12,399 bases of DNA. It comes from a virus. Taxonomy: Duplodnaviria; Heunggongvirae; Uroviricota; Caudoviricetes. This document shows positions 1-4,076 of this stretch, one piece after another. Where the stretch lies: the IMG/VR virus record IMGVR_UViG_2534681737_000003. The stretch is one strand, 5' to 3'. The notes beneath the pieces were generated by a model. The model was not told the DNA's origin. It made no database searches and saw only the letters and a program-made list of their open reading frames with translations. A program made the translations under genes and the position numbers. Each line of letters starts with the position of its first letter. Within the stretch, counting starts at the first letter, position 1.

Positions 1-456
1 CTGTGCGTGGTCATCATTGCCCTGCTGGTGGCCTGTGGTGCGCTTAGTCTGGGGCTGAATCATTACCGTGATAACGCCATAACCTACAAAGAGCAGCGCG
101 ATAAAAAAGTCAGTGAGCTGGAGCAGGCAAATGCAACCATTACTGATATGCAGCAGCGCCAGCGTGATGTTGCTGCACTTGATGCCAGATACTCGAGGGA
201 ATTAGCCGATGCGAGAGCTGAAAATGAAACTCTTCGCGCTGACGTTGCCGCTGGTCGTAAGCGCCTGCGGATCAACGCCACCTGTCCAGGCTCCGTGCGT
301 GAAGCCCCCACCACCTCCGGCGTGGATAATGCAACCGGCCCCCAACTGGCAGACACCGTTACACGGGATTATTTCACCCTCAGAGAGCGGCTGATGACGA
401 TGCACAAGCAACTGGAAGGGGCACAGGACTATATCCGCACTCAGTGCCTGAAATAA
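1..456 (+). CDS. Rz: Spanin inner-membrane subunit (i-spanin) Rz, 5'-truncated by the window edge
   Basis: Track ORF 7..456; the frame is open from base 1. Translation ([12 protein letters not shown]...DVAAGRKRL...[19 protein letters not shown]) is collinear with lambda Rz as I recall it. N-terminal hydrophobic stretch consistent with the signal-anchor TM. The first few codons lie upstream of the window. Confidence 0.9.
209..394 (+). CDS. Rz1: Spanin outer-membrane lipoprotein subunit (o-spanin) Rz1, embedded in the +1 frame of Rz
   Basis: Track ORF 209..394 lies wholly inside Rz in another frame. It has a lipobox (LVVSAC) followed by a proline-rich segment ([14 protein letters not shown]) that matches lambda Rz1 closely. 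Start could be ATG 209 or ATG 224; 209 aligns better with the lambda N-terminus. Confidence 0.85.
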
Positions 457-806
457 GTTTTGTTGATGCGCCGTATCGTCGCTGTATTCCCTCATTAACA
501 GAGACCGCAGCCCGACAGGGAGACTCCTCTGCGCGAGTGTGCGGGGATAATCAAAAACGATACACACCGGGGTTTACCGCGTTAACGGAGCGCGGCGTTG
601 TCCCCTCATAGTCGCCTGTCCGGTGCGATGGTGGAAGAAGCCGGATGTTTATCACTATTAATTGATGACACAGAAATGGATTCATTGAATTTCAGCACGT
701 TTTTGTATTCGTGTTATTGAACATCTGTTTATTTTACTTTTAACATATTGATAATAAAAAGAGCTGTAAATCTTTAGATGAGTCGATTTTGTCCGGGGAA
801 GTTCAA

Positions 807-947
807 ATGGATTTTATGCTGACGGTTTCTGGTGTGGTTATCCTGTCCATTGCTTATACTGCAGATAAATATGGCTGCCATTTGTTATCACGTATTGGCG
901 CTTATTGTTCGTTGATGCTGATTTTCTCGTCGCTTTTTTTTGAGTAA
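807..947 (+). CDS. Hypothetical 46-aa hydrophobic peptide (possible small membrane protein; speculative)
   Basis: Hand-translated ATG 807 to TAA 945-947: MDFMLTVSGVVILSIAYTADKYGCHLLSRIGAYCSLMLIFSSLFFE. GGGGAAG 6 nt upstream could act as a weak SD. Sits in the AT-rich spacer. Below the track length cutoff; no homology recognised. Confidence 0.15.
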   Translation: MDFMLTVSGVVILSIAYTADKYGCHLLSRIGAYCSLMLIFSSLFFE

Positions 948-1079
948 GTTATATTAATTATAACAAATAATTTTCTGTGTTATTTTTTCAGGCTATCCCG
1001 TCAGAGGGGAAGCCTGTACTGCCGGGGAGCGAATGGAAAACTGATGTGTCCGGTAACTGCGTGTTCTGTGAACACCATG

Positions 1080-1265
1080 TTACTTAATTATGTAATTCAT
1101 ACCCGAACTCTCTGTTGACAGCCTTCTTCTGCAGGCTTCAATAACCCACGCTGAAAAGTTTCCTGAACCTTTCAGATCAAGAGCGATGTTAATTTGTTCA
1201 ATCATCTGGTTTGGAAATCGGATGTTGCGGGTTGTTGTTCTGCGGGTTCTGTTCTTTGATGACAT
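1080..1265 (-). CDS. Small putative ribbon-helix-helix DNA-binding protein, possibly YlcI/YnfO-like (DUF3950)
   Basis: Track ORF 61 aa (MSSKNRTRRTTTRNIRFPNQMIEQINIALDLKGSGNFSAWVIEACRRRL...). Basic N-terminus, then a short strand-like segment and two helix-like segments, as in RHH repressors. GGGGAAA SD-like motif about 5 nt upstream of the ATG on the minus strand. Position next to cos/Nu1 resembles where ylcI/ynfO-type genes sit in E. coli lambdoid prophages (from memory, unverified). Confidence 0.45.
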   Translation of the reverse strand: MSSKNRTRRTTTRNIRFPNQMIEQINIALDLKGSGNFSAWVIEACRRRLSTESSGMNYIIK

Positions 1266-1326
1266 AATGTTTCCCCATATTCAGTGTTGCTGATTTGTAT
1301 TATCTGAAGTTGCTTTTACGTTAATT

Positions 1327-1360
1327 TGACGCAGATCAATTAATACGATACCTGCGTCAT
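1327..1360. promoter_or_regulatory. Paired inverted repeats (candidate operator) upstream of the minus-strand small RHH-like gene
   Basis: TGACGCAG at 1327-1334 has its exact reverse complement CTGCGTCA at 1352-1359, and ATCAATTA is paired with TAATTGAT. Located 60-95 bp upstream of the 1265 start of the minus-strand ORF. Function inferred only. Confidence 0.25.
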
Positions 1361-1471
1361 AATTGATTATTTCTCGTGGTTTGATGGCGTACACACATGT
1401 TGTGATAAACCTTATATAGATGATAATTATTATCATTTCGTGGGTCCTTTCCGGCGATCCGACCGGTTACG

Positions 1472-1483
1472 GGGCGGCGACCT
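1472..1483 (+). other. cosN: cosN 12-nt cohesive-end sequence (terminase nicking site)
   Basis: Exact GGGCGGCGACCT, the lambda 5' single-stranded cohesive end, in the canonical context ...GGTTACG|GGGCGGCGACCT|CGCG. Confidence 0.85.
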
Positions 1484-1520
1484 CGCGGGTTTTCGCTATT
1501 TATGAAAATTTTCCGGGATC

Positions 1521-1619
1521 CATGTCCGGTTTCTCTTCAAGTTAACTATATGAAAAATATAAAAACAGGTCTTCTGTGAACCGGACATGAACAAAAAACA
1601 GACATGTAAACCGGACATG
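1521..1619. repeat. Three copies of AACCGGACATG (one inverted, two direct) in the cosB position: candidate small-terminase R-site binding elements
   Basis: CATGTCCGGTT at 1521-1531 (inverted), AACCGGACATG at 1579-1589 and 1609-1619 (direct, 30 bp apart), with an A-rich tract (1551-1566) between the first and second. Arrangement parallels lambda cosB (R3, IHF site, R2, R1); binding is inferred. Confidence 0.55.
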
Positions 1620-1666
1620 ACCGGTTTTGTTGTGATTGTGAGGTGAGAGTTTTTGCGAGGTGAGGA

Positions 1667-2176
1667 GTGGCTACGCAGACTGAAGTTGCCAGGCATTTGA
1701 GTCTGACCGATCGCCAGCTTCGCAGATTGCAGAAATTACCGGGTGCCCCGGTCTCGAATAAGCGAGGGCAACTGGATCTGGATGCCTGGCGCGATTTTTA
1801 CATATCGTATCTGAGAAGAAGTAAAAACGATGTGCCTGATGGCGATAGCGAAGAAGACTATGAAGAGAAATTGCTTATTGCCAGATGGGAACTGACAGCA
1901 GAACAGGCTGTTACACAGCAGTTAAAAAATGAGGTGTCAAAAGGAAAACTGATTGACACCGGGTTCTGTATTTTTGCCCTCAGTAAGCTGGCAATGGCGT
2001 TATCCAGTACGCTTGATTCCATCCCTTTATCCATGCAGCGACAGTTTCCTGATTTAACACCGCGCCATCTTGACCATCTGAAAACCCTTATTGCTAAGGG
2101 GGCAAATCAGTGTGCGCGGGCAGGGGATAAATTACCGGATTTACTTGATGAATATATCAGAGCAACAACTGAATAA
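1667..2176 (+). CDS. Nu1: Terminase small subunit (Nu1 homolog)
   Basis: Track ORF 169 aa with GTG start at 1667 (in-frame TGA at 1661-1663 prevents extension); GAGG SD-like motif upstream. C-terminal two thirds are collinear with lambda gpNu1 (e.g. FCIFALSKLA...IPLSMQRQFPDL..RHLDHLK); the N-terminus has an HTH-like segment. Confidence 0.9.
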   Translation: MATQTEVARHLSLTDRQLRRLQKLPGAPVSNKRGQLDLDAWRDFYISYLRRSKNDVPDGDSEEDYEEKLLIARWELTAEQAVTQQLKNEVSKGKLIDTGFCIFALSKLAMALSSTLDSIPLSMQRQFPDLTPRHLDHLKTLIAKGANQCARAGDKLPDLLDEYIRATTE

Positions 2177-4076
2177 TATGATGAGCGCTGTCACAACTGC
2201 ATTACAGCCCCTGATAAGGGCATTGCCGGTGACGCCAGTTGAATGGGCTGATCAAAATTATTATCTGCCTAAAGAATCTTCATATGGTGAGGGCGAATGG
2301 AAAACGCTGCCATTCCAGATCGCCATCATGAACAGCATGGGGAATGATCAGATCCGCACTGTTAATCTGATTAAATCTGCCCGTGTTGGCTATACAAAGA
2401 TGTTGCTGGGGGTGGTCGGGTATTTTATTGAGCATAAATCCCGAAACAGTCTGCTTTTTCAGCCCACGGATTCTGCCGCTGAAGATTTTATGAAGTCTCA
2501 CGTGGAGGCGACGATTCGGAACGTGCCATGCCTGAAAGACCTTTCCCCATGGCTGGGTCGTAAACATCGTGACAATACTCTCACGCTGAAACGCTTTTCA
2601 TCGGGCGTCGGTTTCTGGTGCCTGGGCGGCGCTGCCGCCAAAAACTACCGTGAAAAATCCGTGGACGTGGTCTGTTATGACGAGCTTTCCTCGTTCGAAC
2701 CGGATGTTGAAAAAGAGGGTTCGCCAACCCTGCTGGGGGATAAACGTATTGAGGGCTCTGTATGGCCAAAATCCATTCGCGGCTCGACGCCTAAAATCAA
2801 AGGCTCCTGCCAGATCGAAAAAGCCGCTAACGAGTCGGCACACTTCATGCGTTTTTATGTGCCCTGTCCGCACTGTGGGGAGGAGCAGTATCTGAAATTT
2901 GGCGATGATGCCTCGCCTTTCGGTCTTAAGTGGGAGAAGAATAAGCCAGAAAGTGTTTTCTACCTTTGTGAGCATCATGGCTGTGTGATCCATCAGTCTG
3001 AGCTTGACCAGAGTAACGGGCGGTGGATCTGTGAAAACACGGGCATGTGGACCCGTGACGGCCTGATGTTTTTCAGCGCCCGGGGTGATGAAATTCCGCC
3101 GCCGCGCTCCATCACTTTCCATATCTGGACGGCGTACAGTCCGTTCACCACCTGGGTACAGATTGTCTATGACTGGCTGGATGCACTGAAAGATCCCAAC
3201 GGCCTGAAAACCTTTGTGAACACCACGCTGGGCGAGACCTGGGAAGAGGCTGTGGGCGAAAAACTCGATCACCAGGTGCTGATGGATAAGGTTGTGCGTT
3301 ACACGGCGGCGGTGCCTGCCCGGGTGGTTTATCTGACGGCGGGCATTGACTCGCAGCGAAACCGTTTTGAGATGTATGTCTGGGGATGGGCTCCGGGAGA
3401 GGAAGCCTTTCTGGTGGATAAAATCATCATTATGGGGCGTCCTGATGAGGAAGAGACGCTGTTACGTGTGGATGCGGCGATCAACAAAAAATACCGCCAT
3501 GCGGATGGCACCGAAATGACTATTTCCCGTGTCTGCTGGGACACCGGGGGGATCGATGGTGAAATTGTTTATCAGAGATCAAAAAAACACGGTGTTTTCC
3601 GGGTGCTGCCGGTAAAAGGCGCATCTGTCTATGGCAAGCCGGTGATCACCATGCCAAAAACCCGCAATCAGCGGGGCGTGTATCTGTGTGAAGTGGGAAC
3701 GGACACCGCAAAAGAAATTCTCTATGCCCGTATGAAAGCCGATCCCTCGCCTGCGGATGAAGCCACGTCGTATGCCATCCGTTTTCCTGATGATCCGGAG
3801 ATTTTTTCGCAGACAGAGGCGCAGCAACTGGTCGCGGAAGAGCTTGTGGAGAAGTGGGAAAAAGGAAAGATGCGTCTGCTGTGGGATAACAAAAAGCGGC
3901 GTAACGAAGCGCTGGACTGCCTGGTGTATGCCTACGCGGCATTACGTGTGTCCGTGCAACGCTGGCAGCTTGATCTGGCTGTACTGGCAAAATCCCGGGA
4001 AGAAGAGACGACCCGGCCAACCCTTAAAGAACTGGCAGCGAAGCTGTCCGGAGGAGTGAATGGTTACAGTCGCTGA
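2148..4076 (+). CDS. A: Terminase large subunit (gpA homolog; ATPase/endonuclease)
   Basis: Track ORF 2091..4076; preferred start is ATG 2148 (MNISEQQLNNMM...), matching the lambda gpA N-terminus MNIS.. and giving 642 aa versus 641 in lambda. Extensive collinear identity (VEWAD.NYYLPKES, GGAAAKNYREKSVDV, PCPHCGEEQYLKFGD, TFVNTTLGETWE). Overlaps the Nu1 3' end by 29 nt, as in lambda. Confidence 0.95.
   Translation: MNISEQQLNNMMSAVTTALQPLIRALPVTPVEWADQNYYLPKESSYGEGEWKTLPFQIAIMNSMGNDQIRTVNLIKSARVGYTKMLLGVVGYFIEHKSRNSLLFQPTDSAAEDFMKSHVEATIRNVPCLKDLSPWLGRKHRDNTLTLKRFSSGVGFWCLGGAAAKNYREKSVDVVCYDELSSFEPDVEKEGSPTLLGDKRIEGSVWPKSIRGSTPKIKGSCQIEKAANESAHFMRFYVPCPHCGEEQYLKFGDDASPFGLKWEKNKPESVFYLCEHHGCVIHQSELDQSNGRWICENTGMWTRDGLMFFSARGDEIPPPRSITFHIWTAYSPFTTWVQIVYDWLDALKDPNGLKTFVNTTLGETWEEAVGEKLDHQVLMDKVVRYTAAVPARVVYLTAGIDSQRNRFEMYVWGWAPGEEAFLVDKIIIMGRPDEEETLLRVDAAINKKYRHADGTEMTISRVCWDTGGIDGEIVYQRSKKHGVFRVLPVKGASVYGKPVITMPKTRNQRGVYLCEVGTDTAKEILYARMKADPSPADEATSYAIRFPDDPEIFSQTEAQQLVAEELVEKWEKGKMRLLWDNKKRRNEALDCLVYAYAALRVSVQRWQLDLAVLAKSREEETTRPTLKELAAKLSGGVNGYSR

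What the first reader, a model, noticed from the sequence alone, without database searches (positions are those of the whole stretch)
1080..1360. Small RHH-like gene next to cos with paired inverted repeats upstream (possible autoregulated moron)
A 61-aa basic protein with a plausible ribbon-helix-helix layout is encoded on the minus strand, opposite to the whole late operon. Upstream of it lie two inverted-repeat pairs (TGACGCAG/CTGCGTCA and ATCAATTA/TAATTGAT, 1327-1360), the kind of site small dimeric repressors bind. A divergently oriented small regulator between lysis and packaging genes is typical of an accessory gene expressed from the prophage.
Basis: partly seen in the sequence, partly recalled or inferred. 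Interest (0 to 1): 0.45.

Follow-up and report, generated by a model that had tools for sequence, protein, structure and literature searches.

The report
Small prophage regulator gene, oxygen-sensor promoter
This is a real, already-catalogued small DNA-binding-type gene (YlcI/YnfO family) sitting backwards next to the packaging site of a lambda-like E. coli prophage, and the "paired inverted repeats" upstream are best explained as a binding site for the host oxygen sensor FNR in its promoter rather than as the protein's own operator.

Summary
A 61-aa basic ORF lies at 1080-1265 on the minus strand. Two perfect 8-bp inverted repeats lie at 1327-1367, an arrangement not seen in any simulation.

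The ORF is a real gene under purifying selection (pS 0.40, pN 0.04). It belongs to the YlcI/YnfO family (DUF3950, PHROG 949). Phage lambda has an unannotated homologue. A ribbon-helix-helix fold is plausible, but each supporting line is weak.

The operator reading is not supported:
- The junction of the two left arms forms TTGAC-GCAG-ATCAA (1326-1339), an FNR box.
- The orthologous K-12 sites (ylcI/nohD, ynfO/nohA) are published FNR targets by ChIP and EMSA.
- The box sits 21 bp from a GATAAT -10, the geometry of a class II FNR promoter.
- Perfect FNR boxes with the same geometry precede distant family members in Citrobacter and Salmonella.
- The distal arms are degenerate or missing in other lambda-type lineages.
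- Proteins 89-93% identical occur with no repeats upstream.
- Phages with the same cos core lack both gene and repeats.

The "accessory cassette" reading is supported. Autoregulation is unproven here, although satellite-borne relatives do carry operator-like palindromes. This is a known family with modest new insight.

The parts
1080..1265 (-). YlcI/YnfO-family (DUF3950) gene, 61 aa. The first ~49 codons are conserved; the C-terminal tail is mosaic.
   Evidence: Pfam PF13132 E 9e-19; NCBIfam NF041551 35.2 bits against a cut-off of 30; PHROG 949 E 9e-32. RefSeq annotates WP_001329960.1 as a YlcI/YnfO family protein. pS 0.40 against pN 0.039; variable sites by codon position 10/7/30. Tail variability.
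1273..1276 (-). Shine-Dalgarno-like GGGG, ending 7 nt before the ATG
   Evidence: Read directly from the sequence. GGGG/GGGA is retained in the homologous haplotypes.
1299..1304 (-). Inferred -10 hexamer GATAAT (GACAAT in lambda and DLP12). The predicted TSS is about 1291-1293.
   Evidence: Sequence. It lies 21 bp from the FNR box in all lambda-type haplotypes, including the divergent L248 lineage. Citrobacter and Salmonella relatives have GAAAGT and GACAGT at 22 bp. No TSS data are available, so this is an inference.
1326..1339 (.). FNR box TTGAC-GCAG-ATCAA (9 of 10 half-site positions; perfect TTGAT...ATCAA in lambda, DLP12 and Qin)
   Evidence: Unique in the window, 0.07 expected by chance. 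The orthologous K-12 sites are FNR ChIP-chip and ChIP-seq peaks, and the intergenic fragment containing the site was shifted by purified FNR. Half-sites are perfect in every haplotype found except the window type, which has one T-to-C change; the N4 spacer varies.
1327..1367 (.). The two interleaved 8-bp inverted repeats of the finding (A 1327-1334 / A' 1352-1359; B 1335-1342 / B' 1360-1367)
   Evidence: 3 of 42 sites vary across 28 lambda-type haplotypes. The A/A' pair falls to 5/8 with no compensating change in the L220 lineage, and A'B' are absent in the L248/L252 lineage.
1340..1372 (.). Distal element (spacer plus arms A'B'). Strongly conserved within the lambda/window lineage; no factor assigned.
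   Evidence: 100% identical between the window and lambda across 1331-1372. Absent in the L248/L252 lineage.
1400..1427 (+). Promoter-like site TTGTGA-16-GATAAT reading towards cos and terS; overlaps the Fur-like box
   Evidence: This is a consensus match only.
1416..1436 (.). Fur-box-like AT-rich palindrome (my own count: 15 of 19 to GATAATGATAATCATTATC on the minus strand), inside the conserved cos core
   Evidence: Palindromes I4 and I7. The core GATGATAATTATTATCATTT is shared with DLP12. There, Chen et al. 2007 predicted a 25.3-bit Fur cluster (nohB) and gel-shifted the Qin (nohA) site. The consensus search at 3 mismatches or fewer found nothing.
1421..1500 (.). cos core (cosQ-like GGGTCCT segment and cosN), shared with phages that lack the gene and the repeats
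   Evidence: Homology to Stx1a phages, mEp237, HK225 and N15 starts at about 1421-1422.
1472..1483 (+). Cohesive-end sequence GGGCGGCGACCT (cosN)
   Evidence: The alignment to the lambda right end stops at the preceding GGTTACG. That GGGCGGCGACCT is lambda's left cohesive end is recalled knowledge, not retrieved here.

Best explanation
The region is a reverse-oriented accessory gene cassette between the lysis genes and cos of a lambda-type E. coli prophage.

It encodes a small basic protein of the YlcI/YnfO (DUF3950) family. The protein is most likely a ribbon-helix-helix DNA-binding regulator.

Its control region is built around a host FNR site. The box TTGAC-GCAG-ATCAA (1326-1339) lies 21 bp upstream of a GATAAT -10 hexamer (1304-1299). 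This places FNR at about -41, the class II activating position. A TSS near 1291-1293 would give a ~26-nt leader with a GGGG ribosome-binding site.

The gene is therefore most likely switched on by FNR under low oxygen in the lysogen. The two 'inverted-repeat pairs' arise because the FNR palindrome is flanked by a lineage-specific distal element carrying complementary 8-mers. They are not the conserved functional unit.

Shown here:
- gene reality and family membership;
- the FNR-box sequence and its conservation in independent contexts;
- the presence/absence behaviour of the cassette.

Shown in the literature for the K-12 orthologues: FNR binding (ChIP and EMSA) and Fur binding (gel shift of the nohA site).

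Inferred: promoter geometry and TSS, FNR activation, the RHH fold, and repressor activity. The target in lambdoid phages is unknown.
For: Family and coding.

Lambda homologue: lambda has a 64-aa homologue with the same upstream DNA.

FNR box: unique in the window.

K-12 orthologous sites:
- The sequence TTAAGTTGATGCAGATCAATTAAT was identified under FNR ChIP-chip peaks at nohB and nohA, and purified FNR shifted the fragment (PMC1802558).
- FNR ChIP-seq peaks at ylcI/nohB and nohA/ynfO are marked '+' in all five listed columns.
- The site's PWM score, 16.68, is the highest among the values shown in the retrieved passages.
- The estimated target of the DLP12 peak is 'ylcI' (PMC3688515 supplements).
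- The DLP12 sequence matches the window region. I mapped the published coordinates onto it using an assumed +777 offset between genome versions, which I did not verify.

Independent contexts:
- Perfect FNR boxes lie at -63.5 to -69.5 from the ATG in lambda-type prophages, in a Citrobacter koseri chromosomal copy and in a Salmonella island copy (43-54% identical proteins).
- In each, the box is followed after 21-22 bp by GAnAnT.

Footprint within lambda-type loci:
- FNR half-sites are perfect in every haplotype found except the window type (one T-to-C change), while N4 varies.
- The L248/L252 lineage keeps the box, the ATTAA flank and the -10 at the same spacing but has lost the distal arms.

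Accessory status: low GC; the cassette is absent from Stx1a phages, mEp237, HK225 and N15, which share the cos core.

RHH fold:
- AF2 gives an extended N-terminus plus two helices.
- A CopG-family RHH is the second-ranked profile hit in the PDB, at E 0.45.
- hhalign against a set of RHH cores gives P 1.3e-4 with NIRFP aligned to Arc NLRWP.

Repressor function by analogy: satellite-borne DUF3950 genes carry 2-4 palindromic boxes over their own promoters, and two tandem paralogues have two different box types.
Against: - Myers et al. [quoted passage not shown]
- Grainger et al. saw low activity and a marginal fnr effect, but only for a fusion in the noh direction.
- No TSS data were available to me.
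- The consensus promoter scan found no minus-strand sigma-70 site at its threshold. This is expected for an activator-dependent promoter lacking a -35, but it is still a negative result.
- The window carries the weakest box variant (TTGAC).
- Proteins 89-93% identical in the HNH-endonuclease context have no FNR box, so FNR control is not universal in the family.
- Every fold comparison is below conventional significance, and the AF2 models have pLDDT of only 64-71.
- The strong conservation of the distal element 1340-1372 within the lambda lineage is not explained by an FNR site alone.
Confidence: 0.6

Rival explanations
1. First reader's model. The two inverted-repeat pairs are the operator of the encoded RHH dimer or tetramer, which represses its own promoter (an autoregulated moron).
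For: The interleaved repeat pair is far from chance. It lies in the promoter region and is highly conserved within the lambda lineage: 3 of 42 sites vary, and the window and lambda are 100% identical across 1331-1372. RHH proteins commonly autoregulate (general knowledge). Satellite relatives have operator-like palindromes over their own promoters. Autorepression overlapping the FNR box could explain why FNR occupancy produces no expression change.
Against: - Proteins 89-93% identical in the HNH context have none of the four 8-mers (1 mismatch allowed) within 400 bp upstream.
- The L248/L252 lineage keeps the gene, cos and the FNR box but lacks arms A'B'.
- The L220 lineage has A/A' reduced to 5/8 with no compensating change.
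- In lambda and K-12, arm A is TGATGCAG, a mismatch to A' that makes the FNR box perfect.
- The half-site centres are 25 bp apart, about 2.4 helical turns. That puts them on different faces of the helix, unlike Arc, CopG or MetJ operators (general knowledge).
- The repeats bear no resemblance to the satellite boxes.
Confidence: 0.15
2. FNR binds here, but the site is non-regulatory, or it serves the rightward direction towards cos and terS (the noh genes) together with the Fur box, rather than the minus-strand gene.
For: No FNR-dependent expression change was found for either K-12 locus. The literature originally assigned both the FNR and the Fur sites to nohA/nohB. A plus-strand promoter-like site overlaps the Fur-like box. 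Many FNR ChIP peaks have no transcriptional effect (PMC3688515).
Against: - The noh-direction fusion had low activity and only a marginal fnr effect.
- Myers et al. estimate ylcI as the target of the DLP12 peak.
- By my own reading of the sequence, rightward -10 candidates would place the box at about -37.5 or -43.5. Leftward it sits at about -41.
- Perfect FNR boxes recur at the same distance upstream of DUF3950 genes in Citrobacter and Salmonella, where there is no cos or terS.
Confidence: 0.15
3. The repeats act as an RNA or DNA hairpin. One possibility is a plus-strand stem-loop followed by a U-rich tract. It would insulate the terminase genes from read-through in the prophage, or act as a processing site in the late transcript.
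For: The plus-strand RNA 1320-1375 folds to -15.3 kcal/mol, z = -5.0, with 0 of 200 shuffles as stable, and is followed by UUAUUUCUC. The common C/T variant at 1330 gives a G-U pair in the plus-strand RNA but a C-A mismatch in the minus-strand RNA.
Against: - The terminator scan did not call it.
- The stem is AT-rich with internal loops.
- Only one informative variable site exists, and the FNR half-site optimum explains it equally well.
- The L220 changes break pairs, and the L248/L252 lineage lacks the 3' arm entirely.
- There is no Rfam match.
Confidence: 0.07
4. The repeats are an accessory part of cos, used in packaging initiation or termination.
For: They are close to cosN (105-146 bp). 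Their conservation is comparable to that of the cosQ-cosN segment.
Against: Phages with a homologous cosQ/cosN core (Stx1a phages, mEp237, HK225, N15) lack the repeats, and homology begins at about 1421. The cos descriptions I read name only cosQ, cosN and cosB within about 200 bp (PMC4669245, PMC9026076).
Confidence: 0.03

Closest known systems
YlcI (DLP12) and YnfO (Qin) of E. coli K-12, and the unannotated lambda ORF at 48109-48303 (complement)
   Same: Same family by Pfam and NCBIfam. YlcI and the lambda ORF share the same position and orientation between the lysis/bor region and cos (Qin's layout was not examined here). They share the upstream DNA, including the FNR box and the Fur-like box; N-terminal identity is about 77-90%.
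   Different: The window protein has a different, shorter C-terminal tail, shared with the HNH-context lineage. Its FNR box is TTGAC rather than TTGAT, and its -10 is GATAAT rather than GACAAT. The neighbouring TerS and cosB have a different specificity.
Arc and Mnt of phage P22, and CopG (small ribbon-helix-helix repressors)
   Same: Size and basic N-terminus. The beta-strand / helix / G-x-S-N turn / helix pattern is shared (NIRFP...GSGNFS against Arc NLRWP...GRSVNS). It is carried by a temperate phage. hhalign places the strand and helix A in register.
   Different: No significant sequence or structure match. No demonstrated operator. The promoter depends on a host activator site rather than on a phage immunity circuit.
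Class II FNR-activated promoters of E. coli (FNR site centred near -41.5, weak or absent -35)
   Same: A near-consensus TTGAT-N4-ATCAA box lies 21-22 bp upstream of a -10-like hexamer. FNR occupancy is documented at the orthologous loci.
   Different: No mapped TSS. No FNR-dependent expression was seen in the one genome-wide study that lists these loci. An extra conserved distal element is present.
Lambda morons bor and lom (lysogen-expressed accessory genes embedded in the late region)
   Same: bor shares the reverse orientation and the position between Rz and cos. The cassette has low GC and is present or absent among related phages. That bor and lom are expressed from the prophage, and that lom is embedded in the late region, comes from the literature and general knowledge.
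   Different: The product is a putative DNA-binding regulator rather than an outer-membrane protein. No intrinsic terminator was found downstream. The conserved 5' half of the gene doubles as a recombination joint between modules.

Membership tests
YlcI/YnfO family (Pfam DUF3950 PF13132; NCBIfam NF041551; PHROG 949) | Scores above the curated HMM cut-offs | tested here: met
   PF13132: 67.5 bits against a cut-off of 25. NF041551: 35.2 bits against 30. phrog_949: E 9e-32.
YlcI/YnfO family (Pfam DUF3950 PF13132; NCBIfam NF041551; PHROG 949) | Conserved core motif IRF(P)...NFSAWV.EAC | tested here: met
   I15, R16, F17, N36, F37, S38, W40, V41, A44 and C45 are invariant in a 35-sequence alignment across Enterobacterales.
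Ribbon-helix-helix (Arc/MetJ/CopG) superfamily | N-terminal beta-strand followed by two helices joined by a G-x-S/T/N turn | tested here: met
   AF2 gives an extended 13-18, helix 19-32 and helix 34/37-55. G33-S34-G35-N36-F37-S38 is read from the sequence. The strand can only form in a dimer, so it is not called by DSSP in the monomer.
Ribbon-helix-helix (Arc/MetJ/CopG) superfamily | Significant profile or structure similarity to solved RHH proteins | tested here: inconclusive
Ribbon-helix-helix (Arc/MetJ/CopG) superfamily | Intertwined dimer with a two-stranded antiparallel beta-ribbon that reads the major groove | not testable with these tools
   Only monomer prediction was available.
Class II FNR-dependent promoter | TTGAT-N4-ATCAA box | tested here: met
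   TTGACGCAGATCAA at 1326-1339 matches 9 of 10 half-site positions and is unique in the window. The box is perfect in lambda, DLP12 and most haplotypes.
Class II FNR-dependent promoter | Box centred near -41.5 relative to the TSS, with a -10 hexamer about 22 bp downstream | tested here: inconclusive
   GATAAT lies 21 bp downstream; the spacing is 22 bp in the Citrobacter and Salmonella relatives. No TSS is known.
Class II FNR-dependent promoter | FNR binding and FNR-dependent transcription | not testable with these tools
   Literature for the K-12 orthologues: binding yes, by ChIP-chip, ChIP-seq and EMSA. An expression change was not seen in glucose minimal medium.
Self-operator of an autoregulated RHH repressor | The operator travels with the protein across genomic contexts | tested here: not met
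   The HNH-context genes examined (7 of 11 loci; 89-93% identical proteins) have no arm 8-mers and no FNR-like box within 400 bp. The L248/L252 lineage lacks the distal arms.
Self-operator of an autoregulated RHH repressor | Arms keep complementarity when they vary | tested here: not met
   Lambda and K-12 carry TGATGCAG against CTGCGTCA. The L220 lineage is 5/8 complementary with no compensating change.
Moron / accessory cassette of a lambdoid prophage | Present or absent between conserved flanks, atypical composition, own orientation | tested here: met
   Stx1a phages run from the Rz-downstream DNA directly into the cos core. GC is 0.31-0.42 against 0.54-0.58. The gene is on the minus strand.
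Moron / accessory cassette of a lambdoid prophage | Own terminator | tested here: not met
   No minus-strand terminator-like site lies downstream of 1080. K-12 ylcI transcripts overlap those of ybcW.
cos subsite | Present in all phages sharing the same cosQ/cosN | tested here: not met
   Homology of Stx1a phages, mEp237, HK225 and N15 starts at about 1421. They have no repeats and no FNR box.
Type II antitoxin (RHH class) | Adjacent co-oriented toxin gene | tested here: not met
   No plausible co-oriented ORF lies downstream on the minus strand: none between 686 and 1079, and the nearest ones fall within the conserved Rz-downstream/Rz DNA. The neighbour is a convergent 46-aa ORF. The C-terminal tail is short and mosaic.

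The most novel reading that the evidence does not exclude
YlcI/YnfO proteins form a widespread enterobacterial class of small RHH repressors. One branch is hard-wired to FNR, so that lambda-type prophages, lambda included, express a DNA-binding regulator specifically under anaerobiosis. Another branch acts as the divergent switch repressor of P4-like/PICI satellites, and some of its members are fused to a copy of the helper's TerS DNA-binding domain. The phage-borne copy could then couple the oxygen status of the gut to control of a phage or satellite process, for example satellite derepression, or silencing of the cos-proximal rightward promoter.
Probability: 0.15. Interest if true: 0.6.

Novelty: new member of a known kind. 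Interest (0 to 1): 0.35.

Why it matters
The gene family is catalogued but uncharacterised. A search of the paper library for DUF3950, ynfO and ylcI returned no functional study.

The FNR and Fur sites next to it were published as sites "of nohA/nohB" before ylcI and ynfO were taken into account. Myers et al. later listed the peaks as ylcI/nohB and nohA/ynfO.

Two results give a concrete, cheap experiment:
- The conserved unit is "FNR box + -10 + DUF3950 gene".
- This unit recurs in lambda-type prophages, in a Citrobacter chromosome and in a Salmonella island.

The experiment is an anaerobic, fnr-dependent reporter in the ylcI direction. It would test for an overlooked lysogen-expressed gene in phage lambda itself.

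The result also corrects an attractive but wrong reading: a palindrome upstream of a small RHH gene is not necessarily its own operator.

The satellite side-observations could matter for phage-satellite biology. They are operator-like boxes over the promoters of DUF3950 genes, and RHH-TerS-DBD fusions. They lie outside this window.

Tried and rejected
1. Known ncRNA: Rfam at E <= 1 over 400-1800 gave only two chance-level hits.

2. Upstream ORF 1281-1436 (minus strand, 51 aa; 37 aa in lambda) as a leader peptide. Variable sites by codon position are 6/3/8, which shows no coding signature. The start codon and N-terminus differ because of a 7-bp indel. Rejected.

3. H-type pseudoknot from the interleaved arms: both connecting loops would have zero length, which is sterically implausible (my reasoning). 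The predicted fold is a simple hairpin.

4. IHF sites: by my own inspection, the ATCAA cores lack the TTR part of WATCAANNNNTTR.

5. Defence-system membership: no PADLOC hit for the protein.

6. Direct PDB sequence search with the single protein: only a chance ribosomal-protein hit.

7. A second AF2 run with a more diverse 35-sequence alignment did not improve confidence (pLDDT 64.5). The BFVD fold search was uninformative, and afdb50 was unavailable.

8. Lambda ribosome-profiling paper (Liu et al. 2013): not held in the library.

9. Extra copies of the repeat arms elsewhere in the window as candidate target sites: none at 3 mismatches or fewer.

10. Papers mentioning ylcI mutations (PMC12844343, PMC4330922): the mentions are bare entries in mutation tables and carry no functional information.

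11. Several viral-contig scans with distant members returned mostly the same E. coli or satellite loci.
Full report
**Origin and layout.** The window is 100% identical, over the 1001-bp probe 700-1700, to a lambdoid prophage of E. coli O157:H16 str. 98-3133. It is nearly identical to prophages of the O55:H7 lineage. Homologous DNA occurs in 4605 of 5426 complete E. coli genomes.

The local order is as follows:
- Rz/Rz1 (7-456, +);
- a low-GC stretch containing a 46-aa hydrophobic ORF (807-947, +);
- the ORF of the finding (1080-1265, -);
- a 206-bp intergenic region;
- the cohesive-end sequence GGGCGGCGACCT (1472-1483);
- a cosB with three AACCGGACATG repeats;
- terS (1667-2176, +) and terL.

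**Observation check.** The ORF and both 8-bp inverted repeats are present. Single 8-bp inverted repeats are unremarkable: the window has 12, against 6.1 +/- 3.3 simulated. The abutting interleaved pair was never produced in 1000 whole-window simulations or in 20,000 local simulations.

**The gene is real and belongs to a known family.**
- It scores above the curated cut-offs of Pfam DUF3950 and NCBIfam YlcI_YnfO_N, and it matches PHROG 949, a family of unknown function. RefSeq already names it a YlcI/YnfO family protein.
- Among 20 distinct alleles of the first 49 codons, pS is 0.40 and pN 0.039. Variable sites fall 10/7/30 by codon position.
- Phage lambda encodes a 64-aa homologue at 48109-48303 (complement). 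The RefSeq record NC_001416 does not annotate it.
- DLP12 ylcI has the same arrangement.
- Only the first ~49 residues are conserved. The tails, and the DNA downstream, are mosaic. The window allele combines a lambda-type 5' half and promoter with a tail found in another lineage.
- The family is wide in Enterobacterales: 2913 clusters at 90% identity.

**Fold.** Two AF2 monomer models (pLDDT 71 and 64) give an extended N-terminal segment followed by two helices. The turn GSGNFS matches the G-x-S/T/N turn typical of RHH proteins. Every comparison points to RHH proteins, but each is weak:
- Foldseek top hit HP0222, E 5.9;
- a PDB profile hit to a CopG-family RHH, E 0.45;
- Pfam RHH_6, E 0.09, for one member;

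I consider the RHH fold likely (about 0.7) but not proven. The dimer could not be modelled.

**What the repeats are.** The junction of the two left arms forms TTGAC-GCAG-ATCAA (1326-1339). This is the only match to the FNR-type pattern in the window.

The literature had already found this element at the K-12 orthologues:
- Grainger et al. found FNR ChIP-chip peaks at nohB and nohA. They named the site 5'-TTAAGTTGATGCAGATCAATTAAT-3' and showed that purified FNR shifts the fragment (PMC1802558).
- Myers et al. list peaks at ylcI/nohB and nohA/ynfO, marked '+' in all five listed columns. The site TTGATGCAGATCAA scores 16.68, the highest value among the retrieved passages. They estimate ylcI as the target of the DLP12 peak (PMC3688515 supplements).
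- The DLP12 sequence matches the window region. I matched the published coordinates to it with an assumed +777 offset between genome versions, which I did not verify.
- A TTGAC variant elsewhere in K-12 (ydiQ) scores 15.81, so the window's box should still be strong.

Twenty-one bp downstream on the gene strand lies GATAAT (1304-1299). This puts the box at about -41, the class II position (established knowledge of FNR promoters). It predicts a TSS near 1291-1293 and a ~26-nt leader with a GGGG ribosome-binding site.

**Comparative tests that separate the FNR box from the repeat pairs.**

1. Across all lambda-type haplotypes collected, the FNR half-sites are intact. The only exception is the window-type T-to-C change. 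The N4 spacer varies (CTGC or CCGC).
2. The L220 lineage has four changes in the distal arm and spacer. A/A' complementarity falls to 5/8 without compensation.
3. The L248/L252 lineage has the same cos core and gene position. It keeps ATTAA-TTGATCTGCATCAA and GACAAT at identical spacing, but the sequence in place of arms A'B' is unrelated.
4. Proteins 89-93% identical sit divergently from an HNH-endonuclease gene in other lambdoid prophages. In the seven such loci examined, none of the arm 8-mers and no FNR-like box occurs within 400 bp upstream.
5. Distant family members also carry perfect FNR boxes:
   - One is a Citrobacter koseri chromosomal gene next to a TonB-dependent receptor gene. Its box TTGATGTAAATCAA is centred at -69.5.
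   - The other is a Salmonella gene between fimbrial and type I restriction-modification genes. Its box TTGATATAAATCAA is centred at -63.5.
   - In both, the box is followed after 22 bp by GAAAGT or GACAGT.

Three independent perfect 10/10 boxes at the same position cannot reasonably be chance. The conserved functional unit is therefore FNR box, -10 and gene.

**Not part of cos.** Stx1a phages, mEp237, HK225 and N15 share the cosQ/cosN core, but their homology begins at about 1421. They have neither the gene nor the repeats. In the Stx1a phages the Rz-downstream DNA runs straight into the cos core. The ExcludonFinder study lists ybcW-ylcI as a convergent excludon in at least 50% of K-12 RNA-seq samples. 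This implies that the DLP12 orthologue is transcribed (PMC12288877).

**Is the protein a repressor?** There is no direct evidence in this context. In P4-like/PICI satellites, DUF3950 genes sit divergently from the primase operon. They are preceded by two to four copies of a 10-12-bp palindrome of the GTGTnnnnACAC type, placed around their own -35/-10.
- The box variants track residues just before the beta-strand: YKG goes with TTTAAA-type boxes and KKN with GCGC-type boxes.
- One E. coli satellite has two tandem paralogues with different boxes: TGGTACGTACCA x2 and GTTTAACAC x4. This argues that each box set belongs to its own DUF3950 protein.
- These observations make sequence-specific repression a reasonable family-level function, but phylogenetic linkage is not excluded.

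For the window, autorepression through the repeats gets about 0.15.

**Evidence against my preferred model.**
- Myers et al. place both K-12 peaks among sites with no FNR-dependent expression change.
- Only the noh direction has been tested with a reporter.
- No TSS is known.
- The very strong conservation of 1340-1372 within the lambda lineage is unexplained by FNR alone (100% identity to lambda; 3 of 42 sites variable across 1326-1367).
- A plus-strand hairpin (z = -5.0) and a second, unidentified protein remain possible for that element.

**Fur-like box.** A palindrome at 1416-1436 shares its core sequence with the DLP12 region, where Chen et al. predicted a strong Fur cluster. They gel-shifted the corresponding Qin (nohA) site (PMC2189734). 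It overlaps a plus-strand promoter-like site, and it lies inside the cos core that is conserved even where the gene is absent.

**Verdict.** This is a new member of a known but uncharacterised family. It adds a useful, testable inference: a conserved class II FNR promoter, present in lambda itself.

Noticed in passing
L001 2210-2404 (-) = lambda NC_001416 48109-48303: Phage lambda encodes a conserved 64-aa YlcI/YnfO homologue with a perfect FNR box upstream. The RefSeq record does not annotate it.
   Followed up: yes
window 600-1420, ORF 807-947 (+): Low-GC island (0.31-0.42) absent from Stx1a phages. Besides the DUF3950 gene it holds a 46-aa hydrophobic ORF (WP_000347013.1) with no Pfam, PHROG or PADLOC hit, convergent with the DUF3950 gene.
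   Followed up: partly
window 1416-1436 and 1400-1427 (+): Fur-box-like palindrome inside the conserved cos core, overlapping a plus-strand promoter-like site (TTGTGA-16-GATAAT) that reads towards cos and terS. Chen et al. 2007 gel-shifted the Qin (nohA) site with Fur and predicted a strong cluster at the DLP12 (nohB) site. A related palindrome persists in phages lacking the gene.
   Followed up: partly
window 1521-1531, 1579-1589, 1609-1619; terS 1667-2176: cosB carries three AACCGGACATG repeats (one inverted, two direct). The first ~60 residues of TerS do not match Pfam Phage_Nu1. This suggests a packaging specificity different from lambda's, although cosQ and cosN are the same.
   Followed up: no
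L126-L147, L296, L301, L302 (viral contigs): A divergent DUF3950 subfamily sits in P4-like/PICI satellites (int, alpA, BRO/AntA, primase). It is transcribed divergently from the primase operon and is preceded by 2-4 palindromic boxes (GTGTnnnnACAC type) around its own promoter. Box variants track residues before the beta-strand.
   Followed up: partly
L208 5545-6363 (E. coli CP027459): A satellite with two tandem DUF3950 genes, each with its own box type. The second (P0263, 120 aa) fuses DUF3950 to a TerS N-terminal DNA-binding domain. That domain is 64% identical to the neighbouring prophage's TerS and 53% to the satellite's own TerS. Six clusters with this fusion architecture were found. It may act in packaging interference or redirection.
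   Followed up: partly
L330 5001-5192; L333 5001-5174: Stand-alone chromosomal or island copies of the family in Citrobacter koseri (next to a TonB-dependent receptor gene) and in Salmonella (between fimbrial and type I R-M genes). Each has a perfect FNR box about 65 bp upstream of the start codon.
   Followed up: yes
L005-L044 (genome-contig hits): About 35 contigs assigned to unrelated taxa (Kitasatospora, Cohnella, Pedobacter, Streptomyces and others) carry lambda right-end sequence. Many are ~3.5-kb contigs. Most likely this is lambda control-DNA contamination of the assemblies.
   Followed up: no
window ~1119-1265 and flanks: The conserved first ~49 codons of the gene act as a recombination joint between modules. 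C-terminal tails and downstream DNA differ between lineages, and the window combines a lambda-type 5' half with a tail from the HNH-context lineage.
   Followed up: partly
one locus of the L003-L125 set (locus id not recorded; sequence printed): In one E. coli locus, DNA unrelated to the lambda-type sequence abuts the distal repeat arm and replaces the cos-side sequence. By eye it looks like an IS3-family element; I did not verify this.
   Followed up: no
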